Virus record (IMG/VR): IMGVR_UViG_3300044655_001643
Origin: a virus
Direction: 5' to 3' (one strand)
DNA length: 64,000 nt
Each line of letters begins with the position of its first letter. Position 1 is the stretch's first letter. Below are positions 2,991 through 58,055 of this stretch, one piece after another. The notes under the pieces are model-generated. The model saw only the letters and a program-made list of their open reading frames with translations. It did not search any database and had not been told where the DNA came from. Both the position numbers and the translations under genes were made by a program.

Positions 2991-4490
2991 TTACGGTGCT
3001 TTCTGAATATCACTTGACAATTCGGGTTCTTTCTGGAACTTGTCCGATGCCTCATCTTTTTCGTCTTTTCTGCTCTTAGCAGTGTCTCTGACAATCTGTG
3101 CTTTACGTGACAGAGTTCTTGCTGCCATGCTTGGTTCGTCGGAAGTCTCTTCGTTGACAGATTTCCAACCACCGCCCATTTCTTTGTATTTCTTTGCAGC
3201 CCAACCGTTAGCATATGCTGATGGATATACATCAAACTTAGACTTTGCTTGTGCTTTGGCTTGTGCCCATTTTTCTGGAGAAGTTGGAACATTCTTTTCA
3301 TCAAGTTGTTCAACTTCTTCTTTGACATGACCATATTTCTTTTTATACCAGTCGGGCATACCACTCTTTTTACGGAAATGACGAACTGTTGCAGAATCAT
3401 TTGCTTGGTCACGATATTTGTTCTCTGCTTGTGTATTGTGACCTTTCATTGCTTCGGCTGCTTCATGTGCATCTTTGGCAATGTGAATTAGTGCTTCATC
3501 CGATTTCTTGTGATACTCATGACCTTCTAATGGATGGCGCTGAGATGGACGACCTTCTTGAAGTTCAACTTCTTCTTTTTGATATTTCTTCTTCAAGTAT
3601 TTGTCAACCTTGCGTTCGTACTCACCCTTTGGTTGTTTTCCTACTTTAGGCTTGATGCCTTTTTCTTTCATACTAACAGCAATCGCTGCTTGTTGCGCTG
3701 AACTTACTGCTTCATTCAATTCACCACGCAGATAGTTTGCTGCTGTTGAAATATAATCTTCAGCAAGTGTAACTTTTGATTGCACCCACTCCGGCAGATT
3801 TGTATTTTCTTCCAACATGTCCATCATATCTTGAGCATTGAACATCAATGAACGAAGTTGTGACATTGCCATATCACCCTCGTAATCATACTCACGTGGG
3901 TCTTTTGCTTCTTTTAGATTTGATTTTTTCATACCATTTTCTCTTAGTTTGACATTAGCACTGTCGCTAGTTGATCTTGGTGTTGCTGTTGACACACTTG
4001 AAACAGTATGTGGTACAGTAGGTCTAAATCTACCCTTTTCGGCGTGTTGCTCATCAATTTCAATTTCTTCCGAAACTCTTGATGCTTTCATGATACCACG
4101 AATCAATGGTGCTTTGAGTTGCTTATGTCGTGGAACAGCAATGTGTTGTTTCGACTTTGGATGTGAATAAACATCATGACCACCACCAGTACGTGCCAAC
4201 GACCAACCTGATTTTTTCAAGTGAGCATGAACGTCACGTGTTTTCATGCTTGACTCTGGCATTTCATCAAGCATTTCAACTTCTTCTTTGACGCCATATT
4301 TCTTCTTCAGAGAAGATTGGTGTGCCATGCGTTCATTGTCATCTTTGATATCATAAGATTTACCAAACTCTTTATAATAATCAGGATGTGGCAAACCACT
4401 CTTCTTACGAAGTTCTTGTTGTCTCTGAGCCAACTTCTCAGCCACACCTTCACGCATAGCTGAGAAATACTTTTTTGATTTATCGGACAT
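2991..4490 (-). CDS. modular protein with HicA-like domain and repeated acidic L/I-x-E linkers (putative packaged polyprotein)
   Basis: 499 aa; KEEVEMLDE, EEIEIDE, KEEVELQE and KEEVEQLDE linkers separate basic modules; aa ~82-138 HicA-like. Confidence 0.75.
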   Translation of the reverse strand: MSDKSKKYFSAMREGVAEKLAQRQQELRKKSGLPHPDYYKEFGKSYDIKDDNERMAHQSSLKKKYGVKEEVEMLDEMPESSMKTRDVHAHLKKSGWSLARTGGGHDVYSHPKSKQHIAVPRHKQLKAPLIRGIMKASRVSEEIEIDEQHAEKGRFRPTVPHTVSSVSTATPRSTSDSANVKLRENGMKKSNLKEAKDPREYDYEGDMAMSQLRSLMFNAQDMMDMLEENTNLPEWVQSKVTLAEDYISTAANYLRGELNEAVSSAQQAAIAVSMKEKGIKPKVGKQPKGEYERKVDKYLKKKYQKEEVELQEGRPSQRHPLEGHEYHKKSDEALIHIAKDAHEAAEAMKGHNTQAENKYRDQANDSATVRHFRKKSGMPDWYKKKYGHVKEEVEQLDEKNVPTSPEKWAQAKAQAKSKFDVYPSAYANGWAAKKYKEMGGGWKSVNEETSDEPSMAARTLSRKAQIVRDTAKSRKDEKDEASDKFQKEPELSSDIQKAP

Positions 4491-4492
4491 GA

Positions 4493-5326
4493 TTAGTCCT
4501 TTTTAGCCATCTTGGTTGCAGTTGCATACATTACTGATTTAGCACGTTCACCATAACGCTGTTTGAAGCCAGAAAGACCTTTCTTCATGCCTTTTACATA
4601 CTCTTCTTTTTTTCCTGCTTCACTCTTTGTCAATGTACGCTCATCAAGTTCAACAGATTCTGGCATTTCTTTTACGCCAGTTGTTTTACCAACAGCAACT
4701 TTTGGTTGTTTCTTTTTGCCTTCAAAACTTGCCAGTTGATCTTTGTACTCTTTTGTGAATTCATCGTTTGTAACTTCTTCTTCAACTGTAGTTTCAACAA
4801 AGCCATTTACTTTGTCGGCATCAATGACTTCAATTGTTGTGCCGTCAATGTTCATTTCTTCTTTTTCAATTGGTGCCAATACTTTGATACCATGTTCATT
4901 GTAAAGTTCAAGCATTTCTGTGAATGACAGTTGTTCATTTACACGTGTCGAACGTTTGTAGTTCTGACGAGCGCCATAACCTTTTTTTGCTTTTGGTGTA
5001 TCATCTTCATCTTTTTCATCTTCATAATCACGCTTGTGAACCAGACCCGTGGCAGTCTTTGTTACGGAACCAGTTGCGGTCTTACCAGCAGTCATACGTT
5101 TTTTAGCGTCTGCTACAGTTGGAAATGATTCATTCAGTTGTTCAACTTCTTCTTTTTTCATGCTCGGCTTTTTACCAGCACGAAGCAGTTTGAAGTCATG
5201 GGCATCAACTTTGCCATTTTTGTTGGCATCAATCTTATGCTGATTACCTTTCAACTCTTCTTGTTGCATCACTTTCATTACCGCTTCTGCAACACTCTTA
5301 TTGATTTTATTGTCGAAAATTGACAT
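4493..5326 (-). CDS. modular hypothetical protein with EF-hand-like loop and acidic linkers
   Basis: 277 aa; DANKNGKVDAHDF loop; KEEVEQLNE and ESVELDE linkers. Confidence 0.7.
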   Translation of the reverse strand: MSIFDNKINKSVAEAVMKVMQQEELKGNQHKIDANKNGKVDAHDFKLLRAGKKPSMKKEEVEQLNESFPTVADAKKRMTAGKTATGSVTKTATGLVHKRDYEDEKDEDDTPKAKKGYGARQNYKRSTRVNEQLSFTEMLELYNEHGIKVLAPIEKEEMNIDGTTIEVIDADKVNGFVETTVEEEVTNDEFTKEYKDQLASFEGKKKQPKVAVGKTTGVKEMPESVELDERTLTKSEAGKKEEYVKGMKKGLSGFKQRYGERAKSVMYATATKMAKKD

Positions 5327-5348
5327 TTGATTCTCCTATTAGTTTTTG

Positions 5349-6656
5349 TTATCTTGTGATTTCTTCCCAGTCCATAGAACCATATATGTCGGCGCCGTTG
5401 GTACTTGCCGAAGCGACTAATGTTAGTTCATATGCTGTGTTTGCCAAACTGTTTCTCTCTAGTTGAAACTTGAACAATGCTTCTTTGAGAATATCGACCG
5501 GCGATATACTTTGAGTAGTTGCACCTGTAAATCCAGATGCTAATATTCTACCGCCCGTAACTGATCCACCATCCAATTTATATTCTACAGCAGAATCAAT
5601 TCCAGCACTTACCCATGTTCCACCACCCGATGTGTTTGCATTTGCTCTCACTTGCCAGTTATAATATGCATTATTTGTTATACCTAATATTGATAGTGCG
5701 GTTAGAATAACAATCGCATCTAAACGATTTTGTTTCAGTCGTATTGAAACAACTGGATAATATGTTCCTGCTGTTGGTAAATCAACTGGCGCAGTAATTG
5801 TTGTTCCTACTGCCTGTTGCGTACCATATAATTCATAACCACCCTCAGAGATTACAGTAGAACAAATCTGACTCAGTGTTGAATTACTTGCCGTCACACC
5901 GGTATTTTTTATCTCCAGTCTTAGTGGCAATGATGCTGTTGTCATGTAAGGCACAGTAATTTGATTTTCGTGGTGAAAAACATGAGCGGGTAACATTTTT
6001 CCGTCAACAACAAAACCGCAACGAACATCACCAACGCCTAGCCACTCAACATCAATCCAAAAGATATTTGCTTTACCCACATCTAATGAATTGCGTTCAA
6101 AACCATATTGTGTTGAATAACCAGTGCCATCAAACTTATCAACATTCCAATCAGACTGGGCTACTCTTGTTTCCGTAACTGTGCTTGAAGTATTTGTTCT
6201 CACCACAAGATAATTTGTATTACCATTATTCTCTAAGTAAATGCCATTACTATCTCCAAAATAACCGACTCTTTGACGAAGATTTGCTTTTGGTTGGCTA
6301 AATGCAACCGAATTCATGATCAGCAATGATTTACCTGGTTGATATGAAAACACTTTAGTTGTCTCACGAATGACTTCAGCATTTGCTGTTGTGCCAACAG
6401 TCATGTCAACTGTACTTTGATTTTCTACGAATGCATATGAACTATTACCCGCTGTGTTTGATGATGCCCATAAACCATTATCATTGAATCTATGCGAACT
6501 CTCAAAAAGTGTAAATGGTAGAGCAGTACGTAAACGACCGAATGCATCTGTCAATGAGCCAGATGGTGTAAGACGATCAGACATCATATTCACTTCATAA
6601 CGAGTGAATACTTGTCCTGAATCTATCTTGTTTAGATCGGTCCTAAACTGTGCCAT
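5349..6656 (-). CDS. hypothetical, probable virion structural protein
   Basis: 435 aa; DAFGRLR motif; T/N/S/G-rich beta composition. Confidence 0.6.
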   Translation of the reverse strand: MAQFRTDLNKIDSGQVFTRYEVNMMSDRLTPSGSLTDAFGRLRTALPFTLFESSHRFNDNGLWASSNTAGNSSYAFVENQSTVDMTVGTTANAEVIRETTKVFSYQPGKSLLIMNSVAFSQPKANLRQRVGYFGDSNGIYLENNGNTNYLVVRTNTSSTVTETRVAQSDWNVDKFDGTGYSTQYGFERNSLDVGKANIFWIDVEWLGVGDVRCGFVVDGKMLPAHVFHHENQITVPYMTTASLPLRLEIKNTGVTASNSTLSQICSTVISEGGYELYGTQQAVGTTITAPVDLPTAGTYYPVVSIRLKQNRLDAIVILTALSILGITNNAYYNWQVRANANTSGGGTWVSAGIDSAVEYKLDGGSVTGGRILASGFTGATTQSISPVDILKEALFKFQLERNSLANTAYELTLVASASTNGADIYGSMDWEEITR

Positions 6657-7184
6657 TTAGCAGTTCCACTTTCTCAAGGCTTTATTGATACGTGAATCTG
6701 GATCACGTGCTGTCTTTGCTGATGTGAGTCTGCGTTTCATGCCGCCCATTCTGGCGCAAAATGACTTACGACGGTTTGCTGCTTTAGAACCAGGCTTCAA
6801 CTTCGATGGCTTTGTTGTAACAGCCATTGATAACTTTGAACCAGGATTAGCACGACGATATGATTCAATACCTTTCCGATTCAAACCACCAGATTCAGAT
6901 TGACCTTCTTTGCGTGTCCATGCTTCACCTTCATCAAGTTCAATTTCTTCATTTCTAATTGCTTTGATTTGAGCATCTGTAGGTGCACCCTCTTCACCAG
7001 GTTTTCTCATGCGCTCACCACGGGCTCTTTTGGCACGAATGTTTGCCCACAATCCTGGGCGCTCTTCTTCTAGTTCTTCAACTTCTTCTTTGACACATGA
7101 GCCAGGAGAATAAGGTTTTTTACCTGGCACCGACTTATAGCCAGGCCAGCATCTCTCATCTAAGTGTTGTTTGAACGATTTCAT
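6657..7184 (-). CDS. modular basic protein (DUF6321-like C-terminus) with capsid-targeting-like N-terminus
   Basis: MKSFKQHLDE start; KEEVEELEE and EEIELDE linkers; RRKSFCARM...SRINKALRKWNC end. Confidence 0.7.
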   Translation of the reverse strand: MKSFKQHLDERCWPGYKSVPGKKPYSPGSCVKEEVEELEEERPGLWANIRAKRARGERMRKPGEEGAPTDAQIKAIRNEEIELDEGEAWTRKEGQSESGGLNRKGIESYRRANPGSKLSMAVTTKPSKLKPGSKAANRRKSFCARMGGMKRRLTSAKTARDPDSRINKALRKWNC

Positions 7185-10150
7185 ATGTAGTTTCTCTTTT
7201 TGAATGTTGTAAGTGAGATACCTTTTTTCTTCAACTCATCTTCTTTTTGATCGCCGATGCTTGCTGTTGTTTCATCGCCAGTCAATTCACTAATATTCTT
7301 TGGCACAACTTGTGTTGCTTTGCCCTTTTTGCTCAACTTCTCACCCATATCTCTTGCTGGTGATTCACCTGCACCAGCCATAGAAATGCCAGGCTCTATT
7401 CCTCTGTCGATTGACTCTTCGACTTTCTTCTGGAAGTTTTCTTTGATGGTGCTGAGACTGATGGTTCTTCTTCCTTCGGCAACGGGTTTGTCGGCGCTGG
7501 GTTTGTCTTTTCTTCCAAAACCGGTTCGAACTTTTCCAAGTTCTTTGGCTGACGGGGTGGACATATTCTGTCCATAAATTGCTTCAATAGCATTATCACT
7601 CGGTGAATAAAGCCCATGTCTTTCCTCTCTAAGTTTTACAGCGTACTTGTTGCCGACTTTTACAACAGTACCATTTTTCTGATGTGCTTCTTTTGCTGCT
7701 GTGCCACGAATGTAAAACAATCTTGGCTTGCCATTTTTGTCTGATAGAAGTTTTTGTTTTGTCTCTGTTTCTTCAAACTGTTTACCAATCAACTTTGTGC
7801 CAGAAACATGTTGAATCATTTTCCATGCTTCTTTGTGATTTTTGTTTGCTAAATGTTCTTTGAACTTTTTCTTTTGTTCATCGGTTGCTTTCTGATGAAA
7901 CTTCATGACTTCCATCATGCCGATGTTGCCTTCATATGCTGCTTCACTGATTTTGCCTTTGCCAAAACTTGATACATTGATTGGCTCACCCTTACGCTCT
8001 GGATTTGGATCGTGACGGCGTTTAGCAGCAACGGCAGATGCTCTTTCTTTCTTACTCAATGATGCACGTTTTTCGTTTGACATACATTTTGGTTTTGCTT
8101 CACCGGGTTCTCTAGCACAAGGACCAATTGCTTCACCTTTGCTATTGATGCGTTTCCAACCACCTTTTGGATGTTTTGGATCGAACCATTGACGTAAATC
8201 TTCTTTGATGAGTGGTGTGCCAAGTCTCAGTAGATTGTATGCACCTGGATCTGACATTGTATTGATATCTTGTTGCTCTTCTTCTGCCATCTCAACTTCA
8301 TCAGTTTTGAGTAACCGAATTGTTTTTGTTACTTCTTCTACAGTGTCACCAGTAATTGTAACTGTTACTGCTTCGTTGATAAACTTATCGAAACTATCAT
8401 TGACATTTTCTTTTTTCAGTTTACCGGAACTGCCAGCAACAGGCATGTTCTCAATTCTCTTTTGATGTGTTTCAACTGTCTTAGCAATCTTATCAACTGG
8501 CACTAAACTACCATGTACCGAACGATGTGTGACATGACCATCTTTACCGTAACGGCCGAAACCGTAATATTCTAATCCATTTTTCTGCATATCTTCGTGT
8601 GATCCTGCATCACCATGCGGCTGAACATCACGACGAATTGGTGCTGTATCTTTCTTACCTAATTCTGTTGCAATCCAACCTTTTGCTTCATCGTTCTTTG
8701 GTGGTGCAGCAACAAACTTTTGCATTGTCTTGAATATGCCATCAAGTTCTTTATTCTTTGCTTCAGCAACTTCTGGTGCCGCTGTACGTAAATCATCTGA
8801 GTTATCATACTCAATGTATTTGTCACGGAACAGTTTTGCGAATTGTGGTCGAGCATCTTGAACTGATTGCCATTTTTCTTTACGAATATCTTCTGGCACA
8901 GTACGACCGCCACGTTGACCACGTTCGATGTTTCTCTGCTTCGAAACTTCGTCTGCTGTATTGACCATGACCATGTGTGTATCATAGCCTATCTTTTCGA
9001 GCATCTCTTTTATCTTCAGGTATTTTTCGGGATCATCACCTGTGCCATTGATGATCAGACCATTGCGACCATGAAGTGCTAATCTTTGGCGCAACTCAGT
9101 TACATTCTTGGCACGTTTACGAACAGCATTACGTTGTGCTTCTTCGTTGCCTGGCATTGTTTTATCCAGACCTTCTTTGTCCATCAGATACTCAAGTGCT
9201 TTGTCTGAATTGATTTCAGTCAGACCATGACCATCTAATGTTTTTGATAGAACAAAATCTTTACCAGAACCGGGACCACCGCCTAAGAATACTGCTTTGA
9301 AAATACCTTTATCATGCACACCTTCAGTCAGTGTTTCTTCTTTGACTGTGTGATAATATGCTTCAGCATCTTTTTTGGATTTGAATGTTCTTTTTTGAGA
9401 TGAAACTGTGCCGTGAACTTCATACTCAACATGGTCAGAAGTTCTTCCAGATGGATTTGTTTTGCGAACAATCTTTGGCTCAGTCTTTACTGGTTTGATC
9501 ACATACTTACTAAATCTGCTCAAATCATTTTCATTGAGATCAACATCCTCTTTGATACTCATACCTTTGCGAACATCATTGAACATTTGTTTGACATGAG
9601 AATGTGACATTGTTGATGGTGCACCTTTTTTGAAATCTTCTAAGTTACCATTCTTGGCATGTTCACGCATCTTTGATGCTGAGATACCAGTTACACCTTC
9701 GGCATCTGGATCACGTTCGCCAGCAGAATGCACAGTAATTTTTTTGAAATTGAAACGGGCACCTTCATGTGTGCCATTATATTTGTGAAGCAAACGGTGA
9801 TATTCTTCCACACGGTCAGAACCACCGACCATGTGTAGATGCGTTACGCCTTGCTTGTGAAGTTTTTCAGCATGGTCAAAAAAAGTAGGCGCTTCTTTTG
9901 ATGACGCTGTGAAGTTGGTGCCAGGAAAAGCACGACTGGCATGTTTTACTTTTTGTTCTGCTGAGAGGGGATTCTTCTTTGCATCCTGTGAGTGTGACAG
10001 GACTATGTGATGTGAGCCACCAACTTTGGTAGCAATATCTTTGACTTTATCAACCAACTTCTGATGACCAGAAGTGATTGGATTCATACGCCCAAAGGCT
10101 AAAACGGCATGTTTTTCTTTCTGTTCACGCAGAAAATCTCTAAATTTCAT
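7181..10150 (-). CDS. multidomain protein: cytidylyltransferase-like (HxGH superfamily) domain, P-loop kinase (zeta-toxin/AAA_33-like) and small basic modules
   Basis: FGRMNPITSGHQKL, GGSDR and SASKMRE motifs; GGGPGSGKD Walker A and IINGTG; MKFRDFLRE start. Confidence 0.8.
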   Translation of the reverse strand: MKFRDFLREQKEKHAVLAFGRMNPITSGHQKLVDKVKDIATKVGGSHHIVLSHSQDAKKNPLSAEQKVKHASRAFPGTNFTASSKEAPTFFDHAEKLHKQGVTHLHMVGGSDRVEEYHRLLHKYNGTHEGARFNFKKITVHSAGERDPDAEGVTGISASKMREHAKNGNLEDFKKGAPSTMSHSHVKQMFNDVRKGMSIKEDVDLNENDLSRFSKYVIKPVKTEPKIVRKTNPSGRTSDHVEYEVHGTVSSQKRTFKSKKDAEAYYHTVKEETLTEGVHDKGIFKAVFLGGGPGSGKDFVLSKTLDGHGLTEINSDKALEYLMDKEGLDKTMPGNEEAQRNAVRKRAKNVTELRQRLALHGRNGLIINGTGDDPEKYLKIKEMLEKIGYDTHMVMVNTADEVSKQRNIERGQRGGRTVPEDIRKEKWQSVQDARPQFAKLFRDKYIEYDNSDDLRTAAPEVAEAKNKELDGIFKTMQKFVAAPPKNDEAKGWIATELGKKDTAPIRRDVQPHGDAGSHEDMQKNGLEYYGFGRYGKDGHVTHRSVHGSLVPVDKIAKTVETHQKRIENMPVAGSSGKLKKENVNDSFDKFINEAVTVTITGDTVEEVTKTIRLLKTDEVEMAEEEQQDINTMSDPGAYNLLRLGTPLIKEDLRQWFDPKHPKGGWKRINSKGEAIGPCAREPGEAKPKCMSNEKRASLSKKERASAVAAKRRHDPNPERKGEPINVSSFGKGKISEAAYEGNIGMMEVMKFHQKATDEQKKKFKEHLANKNHKEAWKMIQHVSGTKLIGKQFEETETKQKLLSDKNGKPRLFYIRGTAAKEAHQKNGTVVKVGNKYAVKLREERHGLYSPSDNAIEAIYGQNMSTPSAKELGKVRTGFGRKDKPSADKPVAEGRRTISLSTIKENFQKKVEESIDRGIEPGISMAGAGESPARDMGEKLSKKGKATQVVPKNISELTGDETTASIGDQKEDELKKKGISLTTFKKRNYI

Positions 10151-10182
10151 ATTCCCCCGCCTCTACAGCAGTTGTTTTATGT

Positions 10183-10196
10183 TATTTAGTATTTAG
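10183..10196 (-). promoter_or_regulatory. tandem late-promoter variants (CTAAATA x2)
   Basis: Same variant precedes gp18 and gp19; lies upstream of the 989-aa gene. Confidence 0.55.
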
Positions 10197-16592: not shown

Positions 16593-16778
16593 TTATTTTC
16601 TGTCTGTCAAATTCCAGTTAGTTGTAAATTTTCTATATTGTTGCTTGCTCTGACCTGGTGTGTCATCAACATATTTAGCAGTCGATTCTGGTCGACCCCA
16701 TTCACCTGCACCAGCTTGTGAGACAAACTCTTGTGGTTGAGTCTTATCTACCTTTAGAAAATCTTTGAATGTTTTCAT
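16593..16778 (-). CDS. small protein with capsid-targeting-like N-terminus
   Basis: Start MKTFKDFLK; GAGEWG...DTPGQ. Confidence 0.6.
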
Positions 16779-17098: not shown

Positions 17099-17371
17099 TT
17101 AGCCTCTTGTCAATGTCAGAATTTTTTGCATCTGTTTCTCAATAGCAGGACCACGATTTGGCCAATGAATGTATGGTTGATTTGCGGTCTTGTAAAGATT
17201 CGTCAAAAATGGCATGATGATCTTTTCAACTTGCTGTAGTCTTGCTTTGTATTCTTCAACAGTTTCATCTTTCTCTGCAATGACTGCTTGATACTCAACT
17301 TCATCTACGGTAGAAAATCCAAAATCACTATCACCGTATTCTGCCATAATTTTATTGATATCGTATTCCAT
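17099..17371 (-). CDS. conserved hypothetical phage protein
   Basis: DFGFS...YIHWPNR pattern; start probably MEYD at 17371. Confidence 0.65.
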   Translation of the reverse strand: MEYDINKIMAEYGDSDFGFSTVDEVEYQAVIAEKDETVEEYKARLQQVEKIIMPFLTNLYKTANQPYIHWPNRGPAIEKQMQKILTLTRG

Positions 17372-18594
17372 TATTTGTCCCATGCCTTTTGTGCGTTGAA
17401 ATTTTGTCTGCTGAACTCAAGTCTGTCTACCAACTTCAGTGCTTTGCCTAAGTGGTCAACTGCTACGAATCCCTCTGGTGCAGTAATACGGAAGCCATCG
17501 TCTGTACGAACAAATGTACCAATGCTCTTGATCGTTTCTAACTTACGAATGATCATCAGTTTGGCATCAACAATCAAATTCATCAAATCGAATATCAGCT
17601 TCAATTGAATGGCATTTGAACGGTAGAAACGCATGACTTCATTTTTTTCTTTGATACGTTTTTGTTTTGTTTCTTCTTTCTTGGCTGCAAGAATCTCTTT
17701 GTTCAGTTTTGCTTCAACCCAATTCAACAACTCTTGTGTGTGAATTCTTGTATCAGCAATCTTTTTGCCTTCACGAACTTTTGTATTATTGAATGTTTTG
17801 ATTTGTGTTAGAAAAACTTCTGATGCAGCAATACGATTCAATGTCAGTGCTGGTATTGTATTGAACAAACGACCAGCATTAGAAAGAATTGATGTGATAG
17901 CGGCAGTTTCTTCTTGTGTGAATGTTGCTGAACCAGATGCGTCAGTAAATGAAGCATCACGGAACCAAACATCTTTTGTTGTTTTCAAATGACCAATATC
18001 AATGTTGAATGACGCTTTCATTGTCTCTAATGATTTACCGGAATAGGATGTATGAAACACTACACCAATCTGTGCAGCAAGCATTGTCTGTGCCAGTTTT
18101 GATTTTGTTGGCACAGCATACACAATTGTGTTTGGCTGAAATGTGATATACTCTTCACCATCAATCGTTTCTTTTGAGATGTCATCTTTTGAGAACATCA
18201 TATCACCTTGCAACACACCTTTGATGCCTAACTTAGGCAAGTATGCAAGTGCAAGTTTAAGTTTTTGATTGAGTCCTTCGCCGGGATGATTCTCATCAAT
18301 ATCTTTATCAGTATAATTCAACTTTGCATTTTTTGCAAATACTGATTTTGTACCAACAAAAAATTCACCGTTCTCTGGATTTGTACCAGCAAAGATAGCA
18401 GGTGCGCCATCCCACTTTGTTGTTACATTGATTTTGCTGCCAGTATGACCAGCAAGCATATTACGCAAAGAACGTAGAAACTCTATTGCTTCACGTGCGC
18501 CAGACACCCCACCGTTCAATACATTATCTTCCAAATGCTCCAAATGCACGTTCTTACCTTCTTTACTTTCTTTTATAAATTCTGTGAATTTCAT
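17371..18594 (-). CDS. DUF6267-like protein with ATP-dependent ligase-like motifs
   Basis: HLEHLED, TKWDGAP, LQGD, PEGFV and LKLVDR motifs; MKFTEFIKE start. Confidence 0.7.
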   Translation of the reverse strand: MKFTEFIKESKEGKNVHLEHLEDNVLNGGVSGAREAIEFLRSLRNMLAGHTGSKINVTTKWDGAPAIFAGTNPENGEFFVGTKSVFAKNAKLNYTDKDIDENHPGEGLNQKLKLALAYLPKLGIKGVLQGDMMFSKDDISKETIDGEEYITFQPNTIVYAVPTKSKLAQTMLAAQIGVVFHTSYSGKSLETMKASFNIDIGHLKTTKDVWFRDASFTDASGSATFTQEETAAITSILSNAGRLFNTIPALTLNRIAASEVFLTQIKTFNNTKVREGKKIADTRIHTQELLNWVEAKLNKEILAAKKEETKQKRIKEKNEVMRFYRSNAIQLKLIFDLMNLIVDAKLMIIRKLETIKSIGTFVRTDDGFRITAPEGFVAVDHLGKALKLVDRLEFSRQNFNAQKAWDK

Positions 18595-50855: not shown

Positions 50856-51395
50856 TCAAAATAATTTTTCTACGTTATAATAGGTAAATCTGAAAGTAGC
50901 GTCTGCGGTGATAATAGTGTCTGGAGTATCTGTAGCACTCATAACAAAACCAGACAATGCAATTGGAAATAAATCTTTGAAGTTGAAACGGTAATATGGT
51001 TTATTTGATGCTGATAAAATAGTTACCGCACCATCAGTGTATTGTGGAGTTTTCGTTGGCTGTGCGGAGTTGAATTTGTTTAGTGTGCCCAAACTTTGGT
51101 ATTCTTCATACTCTGTTGGAAATGTCATTGCACGAAGCCAATCATGTATTTCTAACCAACTCAACATCTCGGCATCAACAATAAAAGTGACATTCAATAT
51201 GTCATAAATTGTTTTTTCACCAGGTGCGTAGAGTTCCACAAATGGGTTTGTCACTGGAATTTCTGATGTTGAAAGACCAGGTAATGAAACTGTTTGACAA
51301 AAGTATTGCAAATTCGGTGTACGAGCCATGTTCAGAGTGAACTTGTTCGGCTGTAACGAATTTGGATTAGATGGATTACGTGTGAGAACTGTCAT
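50856..51395 (-). CDS. gp3: tail completion/tube terminator (gp3-like)
   Basis: YFCQTVSLPG and FKDLFPIALS; position after gp23. Confidence 0.8.
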   Translation of the reverse strand: MTVLTRNPSNPNSLQPNKFTLNMARTPNLQYFCQTVSLPGLSTSEIPVTNPFVELYAPGEKTIYDILNVTFIVDAEMLSWLEIHDWLRAMTFPTEYEEYQSLGTLNKFNSAQPTKTPQYTDGAVTILSASNKPYYRFNFKDLFPIALSGFVMSATDTPDTIITADATFRFTYYNVEKLF

Positions 51396-51471: not shown

Positions 51472-52815
51472 TCACATGAGGTTGGCAATTCTAAATCCTC
51501 TGTAGTAGTTGTTTGTTTGTGAATCCAAACGACCCAGACCCTGATCAGTACCTTCAGCAAATGGATTAGCAACTAGACCGTAACGAGTCTTGAAGCCAAT
51601 CTTTGGCTGGAATGTACCAGTATCAACTGCACGAACCATTTGCAGAGGAACGTATGGGCAGTAGAACATACCAGCATCGTATGCGTTAGTACCCTTGTAA
51701 CCTACAACCGCAAACTCTGATGTTGAGCCTGTTGGGAAGTATGGATCGATGTAGACTTTGATACGACCGAAGATTGTACCAGCAAATGTATTACCAGTAT
51801 CGTCAACTGTCAGTGATACTTGACCAGCAAGTGCTGAGTTATAGTCAAGAATACCAGACATCGCCAAAGCGGATGCTACGTCTGAGGAACAGATAACGAT
51901 GTTACCTTTACCACGACGGGTTGTCTTAGCGATTTGATTAGCTTCACGCTCAATCTGGAATGCAAGACCTTTGATCTTTTCAACCATCCAACGACCGTTT
52001 GAGTCTGTGTCAAGGTTGAATGCACCACGTGTTGTTGTACCCGCTTGGCAGCCTGGCTTAGCAACTTTGTAGATTGTGCGGATAACTTCACGGTTGATTT
52101 CAGCAAGAATTTCTGCGGACAGAATGTTAGCCAATTCTGTTTCAGCGTCAAGACCATGAACTGCTTTCAAGTCTTGTGCCAGTTCCATTGAGTATTCTGC
52201 TTTCAATGCACGTGTACGAGCAGTTACAGTAACTTTCTCAATTGAGAATGCCATTTCTTGGAATGTGTTACCTGCTGCACCGTCACCCAATGCTTCAGCC
52301 GAACCTGTTGTCATAGCGCCAGTAGGAGCAGCGTTACCTGTAAACAGATAGTCTGTTGTGTTACCAGCGATTGTCATTGAGGATGCAACGATAGCACCGT
52401 TAGCACCAGCAAATGCTGTGTTAGCTTCGTTGTAGAATGCTTCTGTACCATTCTGTGCGCCATACTTAGTACGCATTGCGAAAATCAGACCTGTAGGACC
52501 TGTCATTGGCTGAACGCCGCAAACGTCATACGCAATCAGATTAGGCAATGAACGACGAACCAGGCTGATCAGAATTGGATCGAAACCAGCAACTGGACCA
52601 GCAGCAGCAGCAGAACCACCAAAACCGCCTGTACCAGCAAAGTTAGTTGGTGAACCTGTCTCTTGCAGAATACCAGATTCTTTGATCATTTCCTGGGCTT
52701 GGTTTTCCAGGATAACTGCCGTAACTGCTTTACGATATGGATCAGCAATTGCTGGCAGGTCTGGGTGGTTTAGAACACCATCCCATTTGCTTTGTAGTTG
52801 TTCAGACAAATACAT
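51472..52815 (-). CDS. gp23: major capsid protein (gp23)
   Basis: GVQPMTGPTGLIFAMR, ELAQDLKAVHGLDAE and FQPKIGFKTRYG. Confidence 0.98.
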   Translation of the reverse strand: MYLSEQLQSKWDGVLNHPDLPAIADPYRKAVTAVILENQAQEMIKESGILQETGSPTNFAGTGGFGGSAAAAGPVAGFDPILISLVRRSLPNLIAYDVCGVQPMTGPTGLIFAMRTKYGAQNGTEAFYNEANTAFAGANGAIVASSMTIAGNTTDYLFTGNAAPTGAMTTGSAEALGDGAAGNTFQEMAFSIEKVTVTARTRALKAEYSMELAQDLKAVHGLDAETELANILSAEILAEINREVIRTIYKVAKPGCQAGTTTRGAFNLDTDSNGRWMVEKIKGLAFQIEREANQIAKTTRRGKGNIVICSSDVASALAMSGILDYNSALAGQVSLTVDDTGNTFAGTIFGRIKVYIDPYFPTGSTSEFAVVGYKGTNAYDAGMFYCPYVPLQMVRAVDTGTFQPKIGFKTRYGLVANPFAEGTDQGLGRLDSQTNNYYRGFRIANLM

Positions 52816-52838: not shown

Positions 52839-53933
52839 TTAAATTTTTGTTTTCGAAATTGCTTGCATGACTGATGCAACGTATGGATCTGAAACGACCT
52901 TCTTCTCGTTGCTATCTTCGTCATCAACTGTTTCGTGAAGTTGTGCTACATCGGCTTTTTTCATGCCTGATGGGAAGTAGTTCTCACGGATTGTTTCAAG
53001 TTTATCTTTGAATTCTTCCTCTGTGGAAAATTCAACACTCTCTGCAAGTGACTTGATTTTTTCTACTTGAGTTGCTGTGAGTCCTTCACATACTTCATTT
53101 ACAAGTTGTACTTTAACCGCTTCAGTAAGTTGTTTCTTATACTGAACGTTGGTTTCAATTTCTTCGTTTAGTTTGTTTTCCAGATCTTCGACTTTGGAAG
53201 CAAGTTCTTCTACCAAGTCAACTTTATCTTCTGGAACATTGATGTAGTTTTCAGCAAACAGATTGCGTAGACCAGCAATGAAATCTTCAGTAATTTCTGA
53301 ACGCAGACCGCTTTCAATAGCAATCTCGTTTTCATCCATCCACTGCTCAACAACATAGTTGAGGTAGTCATCTACTTTTTCTGTCAATTCTGCTTTGATT
53401 GTGTCAACTGCTTCGGCAAGTTGGCCAGCATATTCTGTTTCCAGTTGCTCTTGAATTTGTGTCACACGGTCAAATACACGTGCTTCAAAAATTGTTGCTG
53501 CTCTTGATTTGAAGTCATCAGAGATTGATGAATCATCTGCAAACAGAGAAGCAACATCTTCTTTGATCTGTGCTTTGATTTCTTCAACTGCTGAATTATC
53601 GTCGAGAATTTCTTCTTCAACATCAGTATCTTCAGGCATCATTGCTGTACCTGTACCTGCTTTCATGTTCTTGTCGCCAAGTTGAACATCGCTTGATGCT
53701 GCTGAAGGTTTTGCTGTAGGTGCTGTTGCACTCTTAGCAGTACCTTTGCTTGCCAACTTGTTAGAATCATCAGTCGGTTTGTTGTTTTGTGGGGTTGGTC
53801 CACCTAAATCTTCAGGTGTTCCAGAGTTGCCTGGAGTGTCGTAGTGTGACTTAGGCATTGGCATACCAGGAGCGGAAGACTTGCTTGATGCAAGAATTTC
53901 TGCTGCGGCTTCCATTAGTTTATTTGTTGCCAT
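52839..53933 (-). CDS. gp22: prohead core scaffold (gp22)
   Basis: AATIFEA and VDDYLNYVVEQWMDENEIA; synteny. Confidence 0.92.
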   Translation of the reverse strand: MATNKLMEAAAEILASSKSSAPGMPMPKSHYDTPGNSGTPEDLGGPTPQNNKPTDDSNKLASKGTAKSATAPTAKPSAASSDVQLGDKNMKAGTGTAMMPEDTDVEEEILDDNSAVEEIKAQIKEDVASLFADDSSISDDFKSRAATIFEARVFDRVTQIQEQLETEYAGQLAEAVDTIKAELTEKVDDYLNYVVEQWMDENEIAIESGLRSEITEDFIAGLRNLFAENYINVPEDKVDLVEELASKVEDLENKLNEEIETNVQYKKQLTEAVKVQLVNEVCEGLTATQVEKIKSLAESVEFSTEEEFKDKLETIRENYFPSGMKKADVAQLHETVDDEDSNEKKVVSDPYVASVMQAISKTKI

Positions 53934-53967: not shown

Positions 53968-54618
53968 TTAGAGTTTTCGTAGGAAGTTTTCGAAAAGTTG
54001 AAGTCCAACGGACTCAATATCTTTACGAGATGCTTGACGAATCTGTTTTTTAGCGTAGTCAATATGTGACTCAACAAAACGACCCTCAACATACATCCAT
54101 TCTTTGTTTTCCATGATGCCTTGAACAAATGCACCTGGTGCTGAAGGGTCAGCAACAATGTCTGCTGCTGTGGCAAGACGCAAATCATCTTGAACCAAAT
54201 TGTAACCTTCTTTTGTCATTACGACTGAGCCAAGGGCACGTGAAGAAACACCTAGATTCACACCAGAATCAATCAGATTCTTAGCAATCTGTCCATATGG
54301 TGTTTCCATAATGAGTGCTTTACCGATAAATGTATTACCGTTTTCTTTGAGGCTAACAATCTTATGTGACACACGTTCAAGATTGAGTGATGGTGTATCA
54401 GGATGTCCTAGTTCGCCAAGCGCACGGTTTGACTCAATGAGTTCTTTGTTATAACGTGCAACTTCATTACGCAATGTATCCATTTTGTACATACGATTGT
54501 TGCGATTGACTGCATCGCCAACAAGAAAGATTCCTTCGATGTACATTTGTTTTTTACCATCTTCTGTTTTTTCGGTAAGATAGCGAACTTCTTCAATATG
54601 TTCTTTGATGAGTTTCAT
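53968..54618 (-). CDS. gp21: prohead protease (gp21)
   Basis: IEGIF, NRNNRMY, ALGELGHP, GVSSRALGS and DIVADPSAP motifs. Confidence 0.95.
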   Translation of the reverse strand: MKLIKEHIEEVRYLTEKTEDGKKQMYIEGIFLVGDAVNRNNRMYKMDTLRNEVARYNKELIESNRALGELGHPDTPSLNLERVSHKIVSLKENGNTFIGKALIMETPYGQIAKNLIDSGVNLGVSSRALGSVVMTKEGYNLVQDDLRLATAADIVADPSAPGAFVQGIMENKEWMYVEGRFVESHIDYAKKQIRQASRKDIESVGLQLFENFLRKL

Positions 54619-54981: not shown

Positions 54982-55443
54982 TTATTTTAGTCCCATAGAT
55001 TTGCGACGGCGCATTGACATCTTTCTTTTTAGCAATGTGCGTCTAAGTTTTGCTCTTCTTGTTGTTTTCCATGCTCGTTTTAACAAACGTGCTTTACGTA
55101 ATCTTTCTGTTGCTGGTATACGTTTGATTGTATTGCCAGACAAACGATAACCTTTTATTGCCGATTTGCGTACATTCTTCTGTACGATAATTCTACCTTT
55201 TTTATTACGACGAATACGGCGACGAATCTTTTGCACTCTGCCCATCTTTACAACGTTTGGATTGCGTTTCTTGGCCGCTTCTTCCAATACTTCTTCGTCA
55301 ACTTCAATCTCTTCAAACATCTCATCGACGACGAATGGTTTTGCTTCTTCCATTTTGATAGAAGCAATGTCATCTAAACGATCAAAGATTAGTTTCTTTG
55401 CTTCGTCTAATTTATTTTGAAGAATTAGTTCTACAAAATTCAT
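54982..55443 (-). CDS. prohead core protein (gp68-like)
   Basis: Acidic EEIEVDEEVLEE then a very basic C-terminus ending MRRRKSMGL; synteny. Confidence 0.65.
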   Translation of the reverse strand: MNFVELILQNKLDEAKKLIFDRLDDIASIKMEEAKPFVVDEMFEEIEVDEEVLEEAAKKRNPNVVKMGRVQKIRRRIRRNKKGRIIVQKNVRKSAIKGYRLSGNTIKRIPATERLRKARLLKRAWKTTRRAKLRRTLLKRKMSMRRRKSMGLK

Positions 55444-56182
55444 TGAGTTGACCAAATGTTGTTATTGATTCTGTCAATTGTTGCCAGAATACTTGTTTAT
55501 TTTCTTCGTCTAATTGACTATAAGTGTCAATCAAAAATTGTTTGTTTTCTTCACTCAATATAATTGAGTTGCCATCATTGAGTAATAGTTGTTCAGATTC
55601 AACAAGTTCTTTTATGTATTCTTCTGCCTGAACAACAGCATCAACAGTGGGACCATATGGCAAACTAAACACTCTTTTGAGTTTGTCGCTGTAATACAAA
55701 GCAACACGTGTGCCGTCTGGATATAAACGAACTGCTTTACGCTTGATTACCAAAACAACCGGTGGATCTGGTACCACTGGATAAGCACTTCCAACGCTGT
55801 CTCCTTTGGCTTCTTTCATATCGTAGCCAACATCACCAACTTTCAGTTTTGAACGACGGTATTTTTTACCTTCAATGTTTGTTTTGAAATCTGCGGTAGC
55901 GATCATACCTTCATTCAAATCTTCACGGACTGCTTGTCTTGCTTTGGTATAAATTTGCTTATTACTGGTAATCAAATCAGCCATACGATTGAAAAGACTA
56001 CGCATGATTTCACGATCAGCATTATTGAACACTGGTCGCTCTTCACTCATCTTATCCATTATTTTATGGATACGTTGCAACTGTGCTTTATTGGCCAAAC
56101 CAGCACGAACAAGAGCGTCTAACTTTGAGTAATCAGACTTCTCTTCTTCAACAATGTGTTTGAACTCTAGTAAAGACTTCAT
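55412..56182 (-). CDS. hypothetical prohead-region protein
   Basis: MKSLLEFKHIVEE start; DPPVVLVIKRK domain. Confidence 0.65.
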   Translation of the reverse strand: MKSLLEFKHIVEEEKSDYSKLDALVRAGLANKAQLQRIHKIMDKMSEERPVFNNADREIMRSLFNRMADLITSNKQIYTKARQAVREDLNEGMIATADFKTNIEGKKYRRSKLKVGDVGYDMKEAKGDSVGSAYPVVPDPPVVLVIKRKAVRLYPDGTRVALYYSDKLKRVFSLPYGPTVDAVVQAEEYIKELVESEQLLLNDGNSIILSEENKQFLIDTYSQLDEENKQVFWQQLTESITTFGQLNEFCRTNSSK

Positions 56183-56387: not shown

Positions 56388-58055
56388 TTATCTGCGTCTA
56401 TTATTTATACTGATAACCGACTTGTTTACTTCATCATCTAGACCAGGTGTTAGCGACTCAGTTTCTTCGGTATTTTCAATTGTGTTATCTTCTTGTGGTA
56501 CATCAGGTGCTGGTGCACCACCGCCGCTCATTACAGGACCTTGCATGTCATCAGGCAGTGTATCTTTTTCTTCAGCAATCTGTTCATCCATCTGATCAAT
56601 TTCTTCTTCAGTCATCATGAGAATCTTCTCTTTGACATACTTGTTTGAGAAATAACGACCGACGAATGGATCAACCAATTGTACCATTTGCAGACGGTTC
56701 TGTAACAGTTCTGCCTCACGAAGTTCTGTGAAGTTATTATCTTTACGGAAGTCATAGTAAATATTCTCTTTGAATTCATCCCACTCTTCACGTGTACAAA
56801 CACCCTTGAGTACCAATTGTGTACGCAGAAGATCATCAAACAACTGAGAAAATTTATTACGCAGACGAACGACAAATTTGGCAAACTTGAGTTCGTCACG
56901 TGTAACTTCTTGTGAACGACCTATGCCAGCAAGACCACCTTCTTGTGATTCTAAACGTGAGTATGGTACATTCAATGACTGCAATAATTTCTTCTGAAAG
57001 TATTTTACATCTTCCAGTTCACCAAGATTCTGACCGGCTGGCAATGTTGTAATCTCTGTGCCTTTACCACCTTCACGGCGTGGTAACCAGAAATCTTCAA
57101 GCATTGACATATGCTTACGCTCGTCACGCAATTCACCAGTGTTGGCATCATAAACAAGTTTGTTACGATACTTGATCATAATGTCACGCAGATATTGTTC
57201 TGCTTTACCACGTGGCAAGTTACCAACGTCGATGTAGAAAACACGGCGTTCTGGCGCACGTGAAATACGATAGATAACAATCGCATCTTCAATCATTCTC
57301 AACTGATTGAGTGGCTTGATTGCTTTGTGTAGATATGAAATAACAAATGTATTCTTAGCATCCATCAAACCAGAATTGATATTGACAATTGAATCTGGTG
57401 CAATACGGAGACCTTGGCCTACATTTGCTGTGAATGTTTGTGTTGTTGTACCACGATCATTGAACACATAGTATTCAGCAGTCGATACAATGACCATTGC
57501 ACCCGTTCTTGGATCACGGTCTTTTTTGATTTCACGTACTTTACGAATCTTACGTGGATCAATGTAACGAAGTTCTTTGATACCTTCTTTTGGATTTTCA
57601 TCATTGACAACGATGTGATAAAACATACGACCGTCAATGTACCAACGCTTGAATAGATCGTCGGCAAGATTTGAAAAGTTCAACAGTCTAACGATTGTAT
57701 TGAACTCTTCAATGATTTTCTTTTTGATTGATTCTGGTTGCTTGAGATTGTTTAGAACGATATCAACAACTCTACCAGATTCGTCATGTGTAATAGCTTC
57801 ATTGACGATTTCATCAATCGCCATCTGACATTCTGGATGATTTGACATCTCACGATATCGTGTGATAAGTTCAATCTCATTACGGACTGAACCTTCTAGA
57901 TCAACATAAGTACCGTAATACGCATTTTGCGTAACGGTAACTGCACCATCATCTAATTGTGCAGCAGACGGCAGAGTAAAGGATGCCTGTTCAGGTTTTT
58001 CTTTCTGAACGACATCCCTTGCTCCGATTGTGAAGCCAAACAGTTTGATTGCCAC
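56388..58055 (-). CDS. gp20: portal vertex protein (gp20)
   Basis: YRISRAPERRVFYIDVGNLP and EDFWLPRREGGKGTEITTLP. Confidence 0.98.
   Translation of the reverse strand: MAIKLFGFTIGARDVVQKEKPEQASFTLPSAAQLDDGAVTVTQNAYYGTYVDLEGSVRNEIELITRYREMSNHPECQMAIDEIVNEAITHDESGRVVDIVLNNLKQPESIKKKIIEEFNTIVRLLNFSNLADDLFKRWYIDGRMFYHIVVNDENPKEGIKELRYIDPRKIRKVREIKKDRDPRTGAMVIVSTAEYYVFNDRGTTTQTFTANVGQGLRIAPDSIVNINSGLMDAKNTFVISYLHKAIKPLNQLRMIEDAIVIYRISRAPERRVFYIDVGNLPRGKAEQYLRDIMIKYRNKLVYDANTGELRDERKHMSMLEDFWLPRREGGKGTEITTLPAGQNLGELEDVKYFQKKLLQSLNVPYSRLESQEGGLAGIGRSQEVTRDELKFAKFVVRLRNKFSQLFDDLLRTQLVLKGVCTREEWDEFKENIYYDFRKDNNFTELREAELLQNRLQMVQLVDPFVGRYFSNKYVKEKILMMTEEEIDQMDEQIAEEKDTLPDDMQGPVMSGGGAPAPDVPQEDNTIENTEETESLTPGLDDEVNKSVISINNRRR
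56402..56409 (-). promoter_or_regulatory. T4-type late promoter TATAAATA
   Basis: Within the gp20 3' end, upstream of the gp67-like gene. Confidence 0.7.

What the first reader, a model, noticed from the sequence alone, without database searches (positions are those of the whole stretch)
2991..10150. Putative capsid-packaged polyproteins: modules joined by repeated prohead-protease-type linkers
Seen: four genes (2991-4490, 4493-5326, 6657-7184, 7181-10150) consist of unrelated small basic modules or enzyme domains separated by one recurring acidic linker. Examples are KEEVEMLDE, EEIEIDE, KEEVELQE, KEEVEQLDE, KEEVEQLNE, ESVELDE, KEEVEELEE, EEIELDE, KEDVDLNE and KEETLTE. Where domains are recognisable, the linkers sit at their edges: they flank the HicA-like domain, precede the P-loop kinase and precede the DUF6321-like module. 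Established: T4 gp21 cuts after Glu in (L/I)-x-E. This phage's own head proteins carry similar sites (gp23 GILQE, gp68-like EEVLEE). Inference: these are polyproteins loaded into the prohead, cut by gp21 (53968-54618) into many small effectors, and possibly injected with the DNA. That would be a modular, shufflable cargo system.
Basis: partly seen in the sequence, partly recalled or inferred. Interest (0 to 1): 0.92.

Follow-up and report, generated by a model that had tools for sequence, protein, structure and literature searches.

The report
Phage head-cargo polyproteins with cleavable linkers
An uncultured T4-like phage strings small basic modules and a few enzymes into four long proteins joined by one acidic linker that looks like a cut site of its head protease, so the modules are probably packed into the capsid and cut apart there, though no cutting or packaging has been measured.

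Summary
Observation confirmed. The four minus-strand genes exist. The linker K-E-E-V-E-(x)-L-D-E occurs 9 times in their 1940 residues, against 2 in 18,479 residues of the other window proteins (shuffles: 0.025). It lies at the edges of the HicA, kinase and DUF6321 domains.

Interpretation partly supported.
- In about 80 related viral contigs the same genes gain, lose and swap modules at these linkers or at plain (L/I)-x-E sites.
- Only the residues before the final Glu are conserved, as at known head-protease sites.
- The phage's gp23 and gp68-like protein carry similar sites.
- Modules that follow a linker here open separate genes in relatives. There they sit behind a T4-type capsid-targeting leader that ends at the same Glu.
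- p989 and p175 themselves start with such a leader.
- Relatives of these proteins were detected in purified S-CREM2 virions (PMC10665884).

Cleavage, packaging and injection remain unmeasured, and p499 and p277 have no recognisable leader. The linker DNA is also homogenised, so it probably serves as a recombination joint too.

I found no paper describing this architecture. This scan has noted the same kind of thing in at least eight other T4-like genomes. Verdict: a new variant of T4 internal-protein cargo. Confidence 0.6, interest 0.65.

The parts
7181..10150 (-). p989: leader + nucleotidyltransferase (8-212) + small module (208-269) + P-loop kinase (285-441) + several small C-terminal modules
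   Evidence: ORF; Pfam/PHROG; model; fold matches to NMN/NaMN adenylyltransferases and polynucleotide/adenylate kinases; alignment A2
10124..10150 (-). T4-CTS-like leader of p989 (MKFRDFLRE); M1, F3, F6, L7 and E9 invariant in 20 homologues
9530..9556 (-). p989 linker 1 (IKEDVDLNE)
   Evidence: low pLDDT 201-225; indel boundary
9323..9343 (-). p989 linker 2 (KEETLTE), directly before the kinase; E276 and G277 invariant
8201..8212 (-). Minimal junction LIKE|D before module 651-736
   Evidence: HSP ends and deletions start here; the same module follows a CTS-like leader in L080
7943..7954 (-). Minimal junction KISE|A; a module of about 57 aa is inserted right after it in 6 of 20 homologues
6657..7184 (-). 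p175: leader (MKSFKQHLDE) + two mini-modules + DUF6321 module (95-173)
7065..7094 (-). p175 linker 1 (VKEEVEELEE)
6930..6956 (-). p175 linker 2 (RNEEIELDE), directly before DUF6321
5349..6656 (-). p435: conserved virion structural protein (phrog_1645) lying between the polyprotein genes; used as the synteny anchor
4493..5326 (-). p277: three modules; weak EF-hand-like loop at 31-68; C-terminal phrog_12788 module
5129..5158 (-). p277 linker 1 (KKEEVEQLNE)
4640..4666 (-). p277 linker 2 (MPESVELDE)
2991..4490 (-). p499: seven modules, including a HicA-like domain (85-136)
4263..4292 (-). p499 linker 1 (VKEEVEMLDE); pLDDT below 50 between two confident modules
4050..4076 (-). p499 linker 2 (VSEEIEIDE), at the end of the HicA domain
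3909..3920 (-). Minimal junction NLKE|A before the acidic helical module 195-260
3711..3722 (-). Minimal junction ELNE|A after module 195-260
3555..3581 (-). p499 linker 3 (QKEEVELQE)
3297..3326 (-). p499 linker 4 (VKEEVEQLDE)
53968..54618 (-). gp21-type prohead protease, the proposed processing enzyme
   Evidence: phrog_207, E 2.7e-74
54982..55443 (-). gp68 homologue: an acidic N-terminal part ends in a linker-like EEIEVDEEVLEE|A, followed by a very basic tail
51472..52815 (-). gp23 major head protein; the predicted maturation site ILQE|T lies at the same distance from the conserved core motif as the T4 site

Best explanation
The four genes are cargo polyproteins of a T4-like phage. Each is a chain of independently evolving units. 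Most units are small and basic; the recognisable ones are a nucleotidyltransferase, a P-loop kinase, a HicA-like RNase domain and DUF6321. The junctions are either a conserved linker (a Lys-rich run followed by E-E-V-E-(x)-L/I-D-E) or a bare (L/I)-x-E. Proposed mechanism: the genes are expressed with the late or structural genes. The proteins enter the assembling prohead core; p989 and p175 do so through an N-terminal T4-type capsid-targeting leader, while the route for p499 and p277 is unknown. The gp21 protease cuts after the junction Glu. The released modules stay with the packaged DNA and enter the cell with it. The linker-coding DNA also acts as a short homology patch where modules are exchanged between genes and between phages. 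Shown here: the architecture, the exchange at junctions, the equivalence of leader and linker, and the presence of gp21. Inferred: packaging, cleavage, ejection and what the modules do.
For: (1) Linker enrichment: 9 hits against 2, shuffle mean 0.025. (2) A logo from 131 distinct linkers in relatives shows P14-P9 rich in Lys, P8-P1 as E-E-V-E-x-[LI]-D-E, and nothing conserved after the Glu. Only the residues before the cut site are conserved there, as at sites of T4 gp21, which cuts after L/I-x-E, and of the phiKZ protease (PMC9026906). (3) In the alignments of p499 and p989 the large shared indels start and end in linkers or right after (I/L/M)-x-E. BLAST segment ends cluster at linkers and at plain [LI]xE sites: 23 of 88 observed against 6.7 expected. 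(4) Modules move between the four gene positions. The HicA module sits in the p175 position in 2 loci, p989[641-737] in the p499 position in 3 loci, and p175[41-85] in the p277 position in 8 loci. (5) Six modules that follow a linker or an (L/I)-x-E junction in the window open separate genes in relatives. Four of them (GRPSQ.., DLRKWF.., the kinase and DUF6321) then sit behind a 10-residue T4-CTS-like leader ending at the same Glu; the other two sit behind a short leader that also ends in (I/L)-x-E. 31 of 1565 distinct ORFs in related loci start with this leader, against 6 of 7545 internal Met positions. T4 itself encodes the internal-protein leader. (6) The leader of p989 is invariant at M1, F3, F6, L7 and E9 in 20 homologues. 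(7) The phage's own predicted gp21 substrates carry matching sites. The gp23 site is 33 residues before the conserved core motif, as in T4. The gp68 homologue has a (V/L)-x-E|A junction conserved in 4 relatives. (8) 8 of 10 other linker-bearing contigs encode a gp21 homologue. In podoviruses with no annotated protease in the regions fetched, DUF6321 is a free-standing 84-94 aa gene next to the capsid gene. (9) AlphaFold models: the linkers lie in low-confidence gaps between confident domains. (10) S-CREM2 virion mass spectrometry detected the cytidylyltransferase and gp160. Its authors note frequent detection of cytidyltransferases and kinases in cyanophage virions (PMC10665884). gp154 and gp160 share modules with p989 (BLAST), and by eye gp160 also carries p175- and p499-like modules. 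(11) The genes flank a conserved virion structural protein.
Against: No cleavage product, virion peptide or ejection has been measured for these proteins or for this phage. p499 and p277 have no CTS-like start, so their route into the head is unexplained. The linker is far more conserved (8-9 residues plus a Lys run) than gp21's known minimal motif requires, so it must do something beyond being cut, or something else altogether. A cut after the Glu would leave the acidic linker on every upstream module. Linker codons are more uniform than amino-acid conservation requires. This fits a DNA-level role and could by itself explain why indels fall there. Some indels in p989 do not fall at Glu sites. 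The S-CREM2 authors warn that abundant non-structural proteins may co-purify with virions. Both models are of low overall confidence (mean pLDDT 50 and 56). Co-occurrence with gp21 may simply reflect shared ancestry.
Confidence: 0.6

Rival explanations
1. The proteins are packaged in the virion but are not cut. They act as whole multidomain 'polyvalent' proteins. The conserved linker is an inter-domain connector, for example a repeated site that binds the scaffold core or DNA, or a flexible acidic spacer between basic domains.
For: Polyvalent proteins with many disparate domains in one chain are a described class of phage proteins (PMC5512222). The linker is much longer and more conserved than a minimal gp21 site. 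p499 and p277 lack a leader, so repeated linkers could be the element that binds the core.
Against: Conservation stops exactly at the Glu. In relatives the same junction is occupied by a removable-type N-terminal leader. Plain (L/I)-x-E sites with no acidic spacer also mark junctions. No MuF, zincin or other hallmark anchor domain of polyvalent proteins was found.
Confidence: 0.2
2. The linker is mainly a DNA-level recombination joint, a short conserved patch that lets T4-type recombination shuffle cassettes. The peptide it encodes has no role in processing.
For: In the window Val is GTT in 7 of 7 linkers against 44% elsewhere, and Leu is CTT in 5 of 8 against 19%. In relatives GTT is 78% against 45% and CTT 54% against 27%. 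One exact 27-nt pattern recurs in 44 viral contigs. Indels begin and end inside linkers.
Against: The peptide motif survives synonymous changes (GAG, GTA/GTG, TTA/TTG/ATT). It is always in frame on the coding strand. P1 Glu (100%, fixed by the search pattern) and P3 Leu/Ile/Val/Met are held. Junctions without the DNA patch (plain L/I-x-E, or CTS leaders) behave the same way. This role is more likely additional than alternative.
Confidence: 0.1
3. The proteins are cytoplasmic, not capsid cargo. They are host-takeover or metabolic proteins made during infection. They are either uncut or cut outside the head by gp21 or another protease. The virion signals in relatives are carry-over.
For: HicA-, kinase- and nucleotidyltransferase-type domains act in the cytoplasm. 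The S-CREM2 authors state that contamination of CsCl-purified virions is possible. In this phage the genes lie next to replication and sugar-pathway genes rather than in the head module.
Against: There are T4-type targeting leaders on p989, p175 and many related module genes. The genes flank a conserved virion structural protein, and in cyanomyoviruses the cluster lies between the two terminase genes. Most modules are strongly basic, as T4 internal proteins are. Per PMC5694885, T4 gp21 cleaves its substrates once the prohead core and shell have assembled.
Confidence: 0.07

Closest known systems
Phage T4 internal proteins IPI, IPII, IPIII and Alt (capsid-targeting sequence plus gp21 processing)
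   Same: T4-type head module with gp20, gp68-like, gp21, gp22 and gp23. An N-terminal 9-10 residue leader of the same type on p989 and p175, ending in L-x-E. Basic cargo. A variable, exchangeable repertoire, as at the T-even internal-protein locus (PMC3012670, PMC9026906).
   Different: T4 cargo is one protein per gene with one leader (Alt also has a C-terminal cut). Here many unrelated modules are chained in one gene and separated by a conserved internal linker. Two of the four chains have no leader. The linker is much more elaborate than L/I-x-E. Nothing has been measured.
Processed head and ejection proteins of phiKZ, 201phi2-1 and SPN3US
   Same: Many head proteins cut by a gp21-related protease after Glu, sometimes at several sites per protein. 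The products stay with the DNA and are ejected (PMC5694885, PMC9026906).
   Different: The motif there is S/A/G-x-E. The multiple cuts mostly trim long propeptides rather than release a row of unrelated modules. No shared linker or cassette exchange is described.
Polyvalent proteins (Iyer, Burroughs, Anand, de Souza, Aravind 2017, PMC5512222)
   Same: Disparate domains in one phage polypeptide, encoded near virion genes and predicted to enter the host with the DNA.
   Different: That paper does not mention cyanophages, HicA or Zeta-type kinases. Its abstract predicts processing by zincin-like metallopeptidases (quoted from memory, not retrieved here). No MuF or zincin domain is present here. 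The repeated prohead-protease-type linker is not part of that description.
Cyanomyovirus 'gp114'-type and cytidylyltransferase proteins (Syn9, S-RIM8, S-SRM01, S-CREM2, HTVC008M, Melnitz)
   Same: Homologous modules in the same gene neighbourhood: DUF6321, the DLRxWF module, the VWPSAYA module and the nucleotidyltransferase. Melnitz has two exact linkers. S-CREM2 members were found in virions.
   Different: In the marine isolates the linkers are degenerate or absent, and these proteins are annotated as hypothetical. In the papers I searched the chain-of-modules reading has not been made.

Membership tests
T4-type CTS-targeted, gp21-processed head cargo | N-terminal leader of about 10 residues of the T4 internal-protein type, ending in (L/I)-x-E | tested here: inconclusive
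   Met for p989 (leader invariant in 20 homologues) and p175. Not met for p499 and p277. The T4 leader was verified in the T4 genome.
T4-type CTS-targeted, gp21-processed head cargo | The phage encodes a gp21-type prohead protease and a gp22-type scaffold core | tested here: met
   phrog_207 (E 2.7e-74) and phrog_237 (E 9.4e-90), with a gp68 homologue between portal and protease.
T4-type CTS-targeted, gp21-processed head cargo | Cleavage by the prohead protease after the Glu | not testable with these tools
   Only motif and comparative evidence is available.
T4-type CTS-targeted, gp21-processed head cargo | Presence of the mature protein inside the virion and ejection with the DNA | not testable with these tools
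   Indirect only: homologues were detected in S-CREM2 virion mass spectrometry (PMC10665884). No peptide-level data are in its supplement.
Polyvalent proteins (PMC5512222) | Two or more domains of disparate activity in one polypeptide encoded among virion genes | tested here: met
   Nucleotidyltransferase + kinase + small modules; HicA + small modules; the genes lie next to a virion structural protein.
Polyvalent proteins (PMC5512222) | Hallmark anchor or processing domains (MuF, zincin-like peptidase and similar) | tested here: not met
   No such Pfam or NCBIfam match in any of the four proteins.
HicA toxin (PF07927) | Match above Pfam's gathering score | tested here: met
   38.3 bits against a cut-off of 27, residues 85-136 of p499. 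phrog_353 'toxin', E 4.7e-12. The model is confident there, about 80 pLDDT.
HicA toxin (PF07927) | Adjacent HicB antitoxin | tested here: not met
   No HicB-type match in the eight neighbouring proteins scanned. The rest of the window was not scanned for it.
DUF6321 (PF19846) | Match above Pfam's gathering score | tested here: met
   60.3 bits against a cut-off of 28.5, residues 95-173 of p175.
NadR-like bifunctional NMN adenylyltransferase / ribosylnicotinamide kinase | Sequence-family membership of both domains | tested here: not met
   Fold-level resemblance only (6gyf, E 8.6e-07, with ATP sulfurylase, NaMN adenylyltransferases and polynucleotide kinases ranked similarly). Pfam gives CTP_transf_like below its cut-off and Zeta/AAA_33, not the NadR kinase family.

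The most novel reading that the evidence does not exclude
Aquatic T4-like phages may run a general cassette system for capsid cargo. Any small module becomes cargo by sitting behind either an N-terminal T4-type leader or an internal acidic linker, two interchangeable 'address and cut here' signals read by the prohead core and by gp21. The linker's DNA doubles as the recombination joint. One gene would then deliver a rapidly reshuffled set of injected proteins, including a latent HicA-type RNase and a nucleotidyltransferase-kinase pair, that act in the first moments of infection.
Probability: 0.35. Interest if true: 0.8.

Novelty: new variant of a known kind. Interest (0 to 1): 0.65.

Why it matters
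If the linkers are cut, one conserved peptide would explain two things. It would show how abundant aquatic T4-like phages load many small proteins into the head from a few genes. It would also show how they renew that set quickly by swapping cassettes at a standard joint. That would extend the T4 internal-protein model from one protein per gene to polyproteins. It would assign a role to dozens of small 'hypothetical' modules that are widespread in cyanophage and pelagiphage genomes (DUF6321 and others). It would also give a simple sequence rule for predicting injected phage proteins in metagenomes. The rule can be tested directly by virion N-terminomics in cultured relatives.

Tried and rejected
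- A megablast of the region against 50,697 phage records found nothing. The phage has no close cultured relative, so no annotation could be borrowed.
- Complex prediction with gp21 and p499 residues 45-100 gave no verdict (score 0.00). It counts neither for nor against cleavage.
- Literature searches for 'cytitidyltransferase' and for 'Syn9 gp114' returned nothing. Sullivan et al. 2010 does not mention these proteins.
- The S-CREM2 supplement holds no peptide-level data that could show semi-tryptic ends. PMC12801897 concerns a different cytidylyltransferase.
- NCBIfam added nothing beyond a weak nucleotidyltransferase domain.
- Pfam on ten other linker-bearing proteins from viral contigs named only DUF6321 and DUF3008, so most modules are unnamed.
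- An exact T4 late promoter (TATAAATA) is not present in front of the four genes. Only a CTAAATA variant lies 39 nt upstream of p989, as it does upstream of the tail-tube gene. This is weak evidence for late timing and I did not rely on it.
- A first pass with the repeat finder failed on strand syntax and was replaced by the codon analysis.
- A NadR-like role for the N-terminal half of p989 was considered and left as a lead only.

Full report
**Setting.** The window comes from a T4-like phage with about 38% G+C. All of its genes lie on the minus strand. It carries a standard T4 head module:
- portal, 56388-58055
- prohead protease gp21, 53968-54618
- scaffold gp22, 52839-53933
- major head protein gp23, 51472-52815

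No cultured phage is close at the DNA level. The nearest named relatives by protein are Kyanoviridae: Synechococcus cyanomyoviruses, Pelagibacter phage HTVC008M and Methylophilales phage Melnitz.

The four ORFs are as described. Family scans give:
- p499: a HicA domain at 85-136.
- p989: a nucleotidyltransferase at 8-212 and a Zeta/AAA_33-type P-loop kinase at 285-441.
- p175: DUF6321 at 95-173.
- The gene between them (5349-6656): a conserved virion structural protein, phrog_1645.

A strict linker pattern hits 9 times in the four proteins and twice in the other 18,479 residues of the window. Shuffles give a mean of 0.025.

**Comparative evidence.** I used the structural protein as an anchor and fetched 79 related viral loci at 35-94% identity.
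- The flanking genes are syntenic and carry the same linker, but the set of modules differs from locus to locus. Modules also turn up in a different gene of the cluster.
- In the alignment of p499 with six homologues, every inserted or deleted module is bounded by linkers.
- In the alignment of p989 with 19 homologues, module 208-269 is present only in the window and one relative, and it lies between two linkers. A 57-residue module is inserted right after K-I-S-E in six sequences. Module 651-736 is deleted right after (I/M/F)-x-E in three.
- BLAST segment ends cluster at linkers and at plain [LI]-x-E sites, 23 of 88 against 6.7 expected.
- Some indels in disordered parts of p989 do not fall at Glu sites.

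**The linker as a cut site.**
- A logo from 131 distinct linkers shows a Lys-rich run, then E-E-V-E-(x)-L/I-D-E, and no conservation after the Glu.
- T4 gp21 cuts after Glu in L/I-x-E, with few other determinants (PMC9026906). It cleaves gp22, gp67, gp68, gp23, gp24, Alt and the internal proteins (PMC5694885).
- The window's gp23 has I-L-Q-E|T exactly 33 residues before the conserved core motif, the same spacing as the T4 maturation site.
- The protein at 54982-55443 is a gp68 homologue. Its acidic N-terminal part ends in a linker-like E-E-I-E-V-D-E-E-V-L-E-E|A, followed by a very basic tail. Relatives keep a (V/L)-x-E|A junction at that point.

**The strongest argument: leader and linker are interchangeable.** Six modules that follow an internal linker or an (L/I)-x-E junction in the window are, in relatives, the first module of a separate gene. 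Four of them are the module starting GRPSQ, the module starting DLRKWF, the kinase and DUF6321. In relatives these four are preceded by a 10-residue leader of the T4 capsid-targeting type that ends at the very same Glu. The other two sit behind a short leader that also ends in (I/L)-x-E.
- This leader opens 31 of 1565 distinct ORFs in the related loci, against 6 of 7545 internal Met positions.
- T4 itself encodes its internal-protein leader twice.
- p989 and p175 start with such a leader. That of p989 is invariant at five positions in 20 homologues.
- In T4 this leader targets proteins to the prohead core and is removed by gp21 (PMC9026906, PMC3012670).

**Other support.**
- The two AlphaFold models have low overall confidence (mean pLDDT 50 and 56). 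They place the linkers in low-confidence gaps between confident domains.
- An exact 27-nt linker pattern occurs in 44 viral contigs, in proteins with up to seven linkers. Eight of ten such contigs tested encode a gp21 homologue.
- In podoviruses with no protease annotated in the fetched regions, DUF6321 is a free-standing 84-94 residue gene next to the capsid gene.
- Virion mass spectrometry of cyanophage S-CREM2 detected its cytidylyltransferase and gp160. Its authors note frequent detection of such enzymes in cyanophage virions, and they warn about possible carry-over (PMC10665884). gp154 and gp160 share modules with p989 by BLAST. By eye, gp160 also carries p175- and p499-like modules.
- Most predicted products are basic.

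**A second role for the linker.** Codon choice inside linkers is more uniform than elsewhere. Val is GTT in 7 of 7 linkers in the window; in relatives GTT is 78% against 45% elsewhere. The peptide motif nevertheless persists through synonymous variants. The linker DNA therefore probably also serves as a recombination joint.

**What remains open.** Nothing here shows cleavage, packaging or ejection. p499 and p277 lack a leader. The linker is more elaborate than a gp21 site needs. A cut would leave an acidic tail on each upstream module.

**Novelty.** T4 internal proteins, phiKZ-type processed ejection proteins and polyvalent proteins are the known frames. The polyvalent-protein paper does not cover these families. 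My literature searches found no description of linker-joined cargo polyproteins in T4-like phages. This scan has reported the same kind of architecture in at least eight other uncultured T4-like genomes. The finding is therefore recurrent in nature but, as far as I could search, undescribed. I class it as a new variant of a known kind.

Noticed in passing
window 17371-18594 (-) and 16596-16778 (-): A 407-aa protein starts with a CTS-like MKFTEFIKE, and a 60-aa ORF starts with MKTFKDFLK. Both lie outside the four genes and may belong to the same cargo set.
   Followed up: partly
window 55412-56182 (-): A 256-aa protein sits between the portal and the gp68 homologue, in the position of T4 gp67. 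Its start, MKSLLEFKxIVE, is conserved in three relatives and matches no PHROG family. It is probably another prohead-core or cargo protein.
   Followed up: partly
window 8650-10129 (-), residues 8-500 of p989: The nucleotidyltransferase and P-loop kinase pair gives two-domain fold matches to NadR (NMN adenylyltransferase + ribosylnicotinamide kinase) and to ATP sulfurylase/APS kinase. It also gives single-domain matches to NaMN adenylyltransferases and polynucleotide kinases. A virion-carried NAD-salvage or nucleic-acid end-processing enzyme is a lead only.
   Followed up: partly
L133:3004-3288 (HTVC103P gp74) and L134:2959-3213 (P-SCSP1l gene 18): In Pelagibacter and Prochlorococcus podoviruses the DUF6321 module is a free-standing, very basic 84-94 aa gene just downstream of the major capsid gene. 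This suggests a head-internal role across phage morphotypes.
   Followed up: partly
L001:8617-8943 (S-RIM8) and L002:8560-8868 (S-SRM01): The small gene just upstream of the conserved virion structural protein starts with MKSYNEFISE or MKSFKQFISE. These match the T4 internal-protein leader at 7 and 6 of 10 positions, so the T4-type capsid address seems conserved in marine and freshwater cyanomyoviruses.
   Followed up: partly
window 4493-5326 (-), residues 31-68 of p277: A weak EF-hand/dockerin-like calcium-binding loop, below Pfam's cut-offs.
   Followed up: no
window 10156-10196, 58684-58691 and 2987-2994: Variant late-promoter-like boxes (CTAAATA or CATAAATA) lie 29-46 nt upstream of p989, the tail-tube gene and the 192-aa structural-like gene. 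Exact TATAAATA boxes precede gp22 and the genes at 51395 and 19319.
   Followed up: partly
L116:7594-9726 (-): A 711-aa protein from a 218-kb complete viral contig has seven linkers, and its leader runs straight into a linker (MKRFKSYINESVELDE). This is the most extreme example seen.
   Followed up: no
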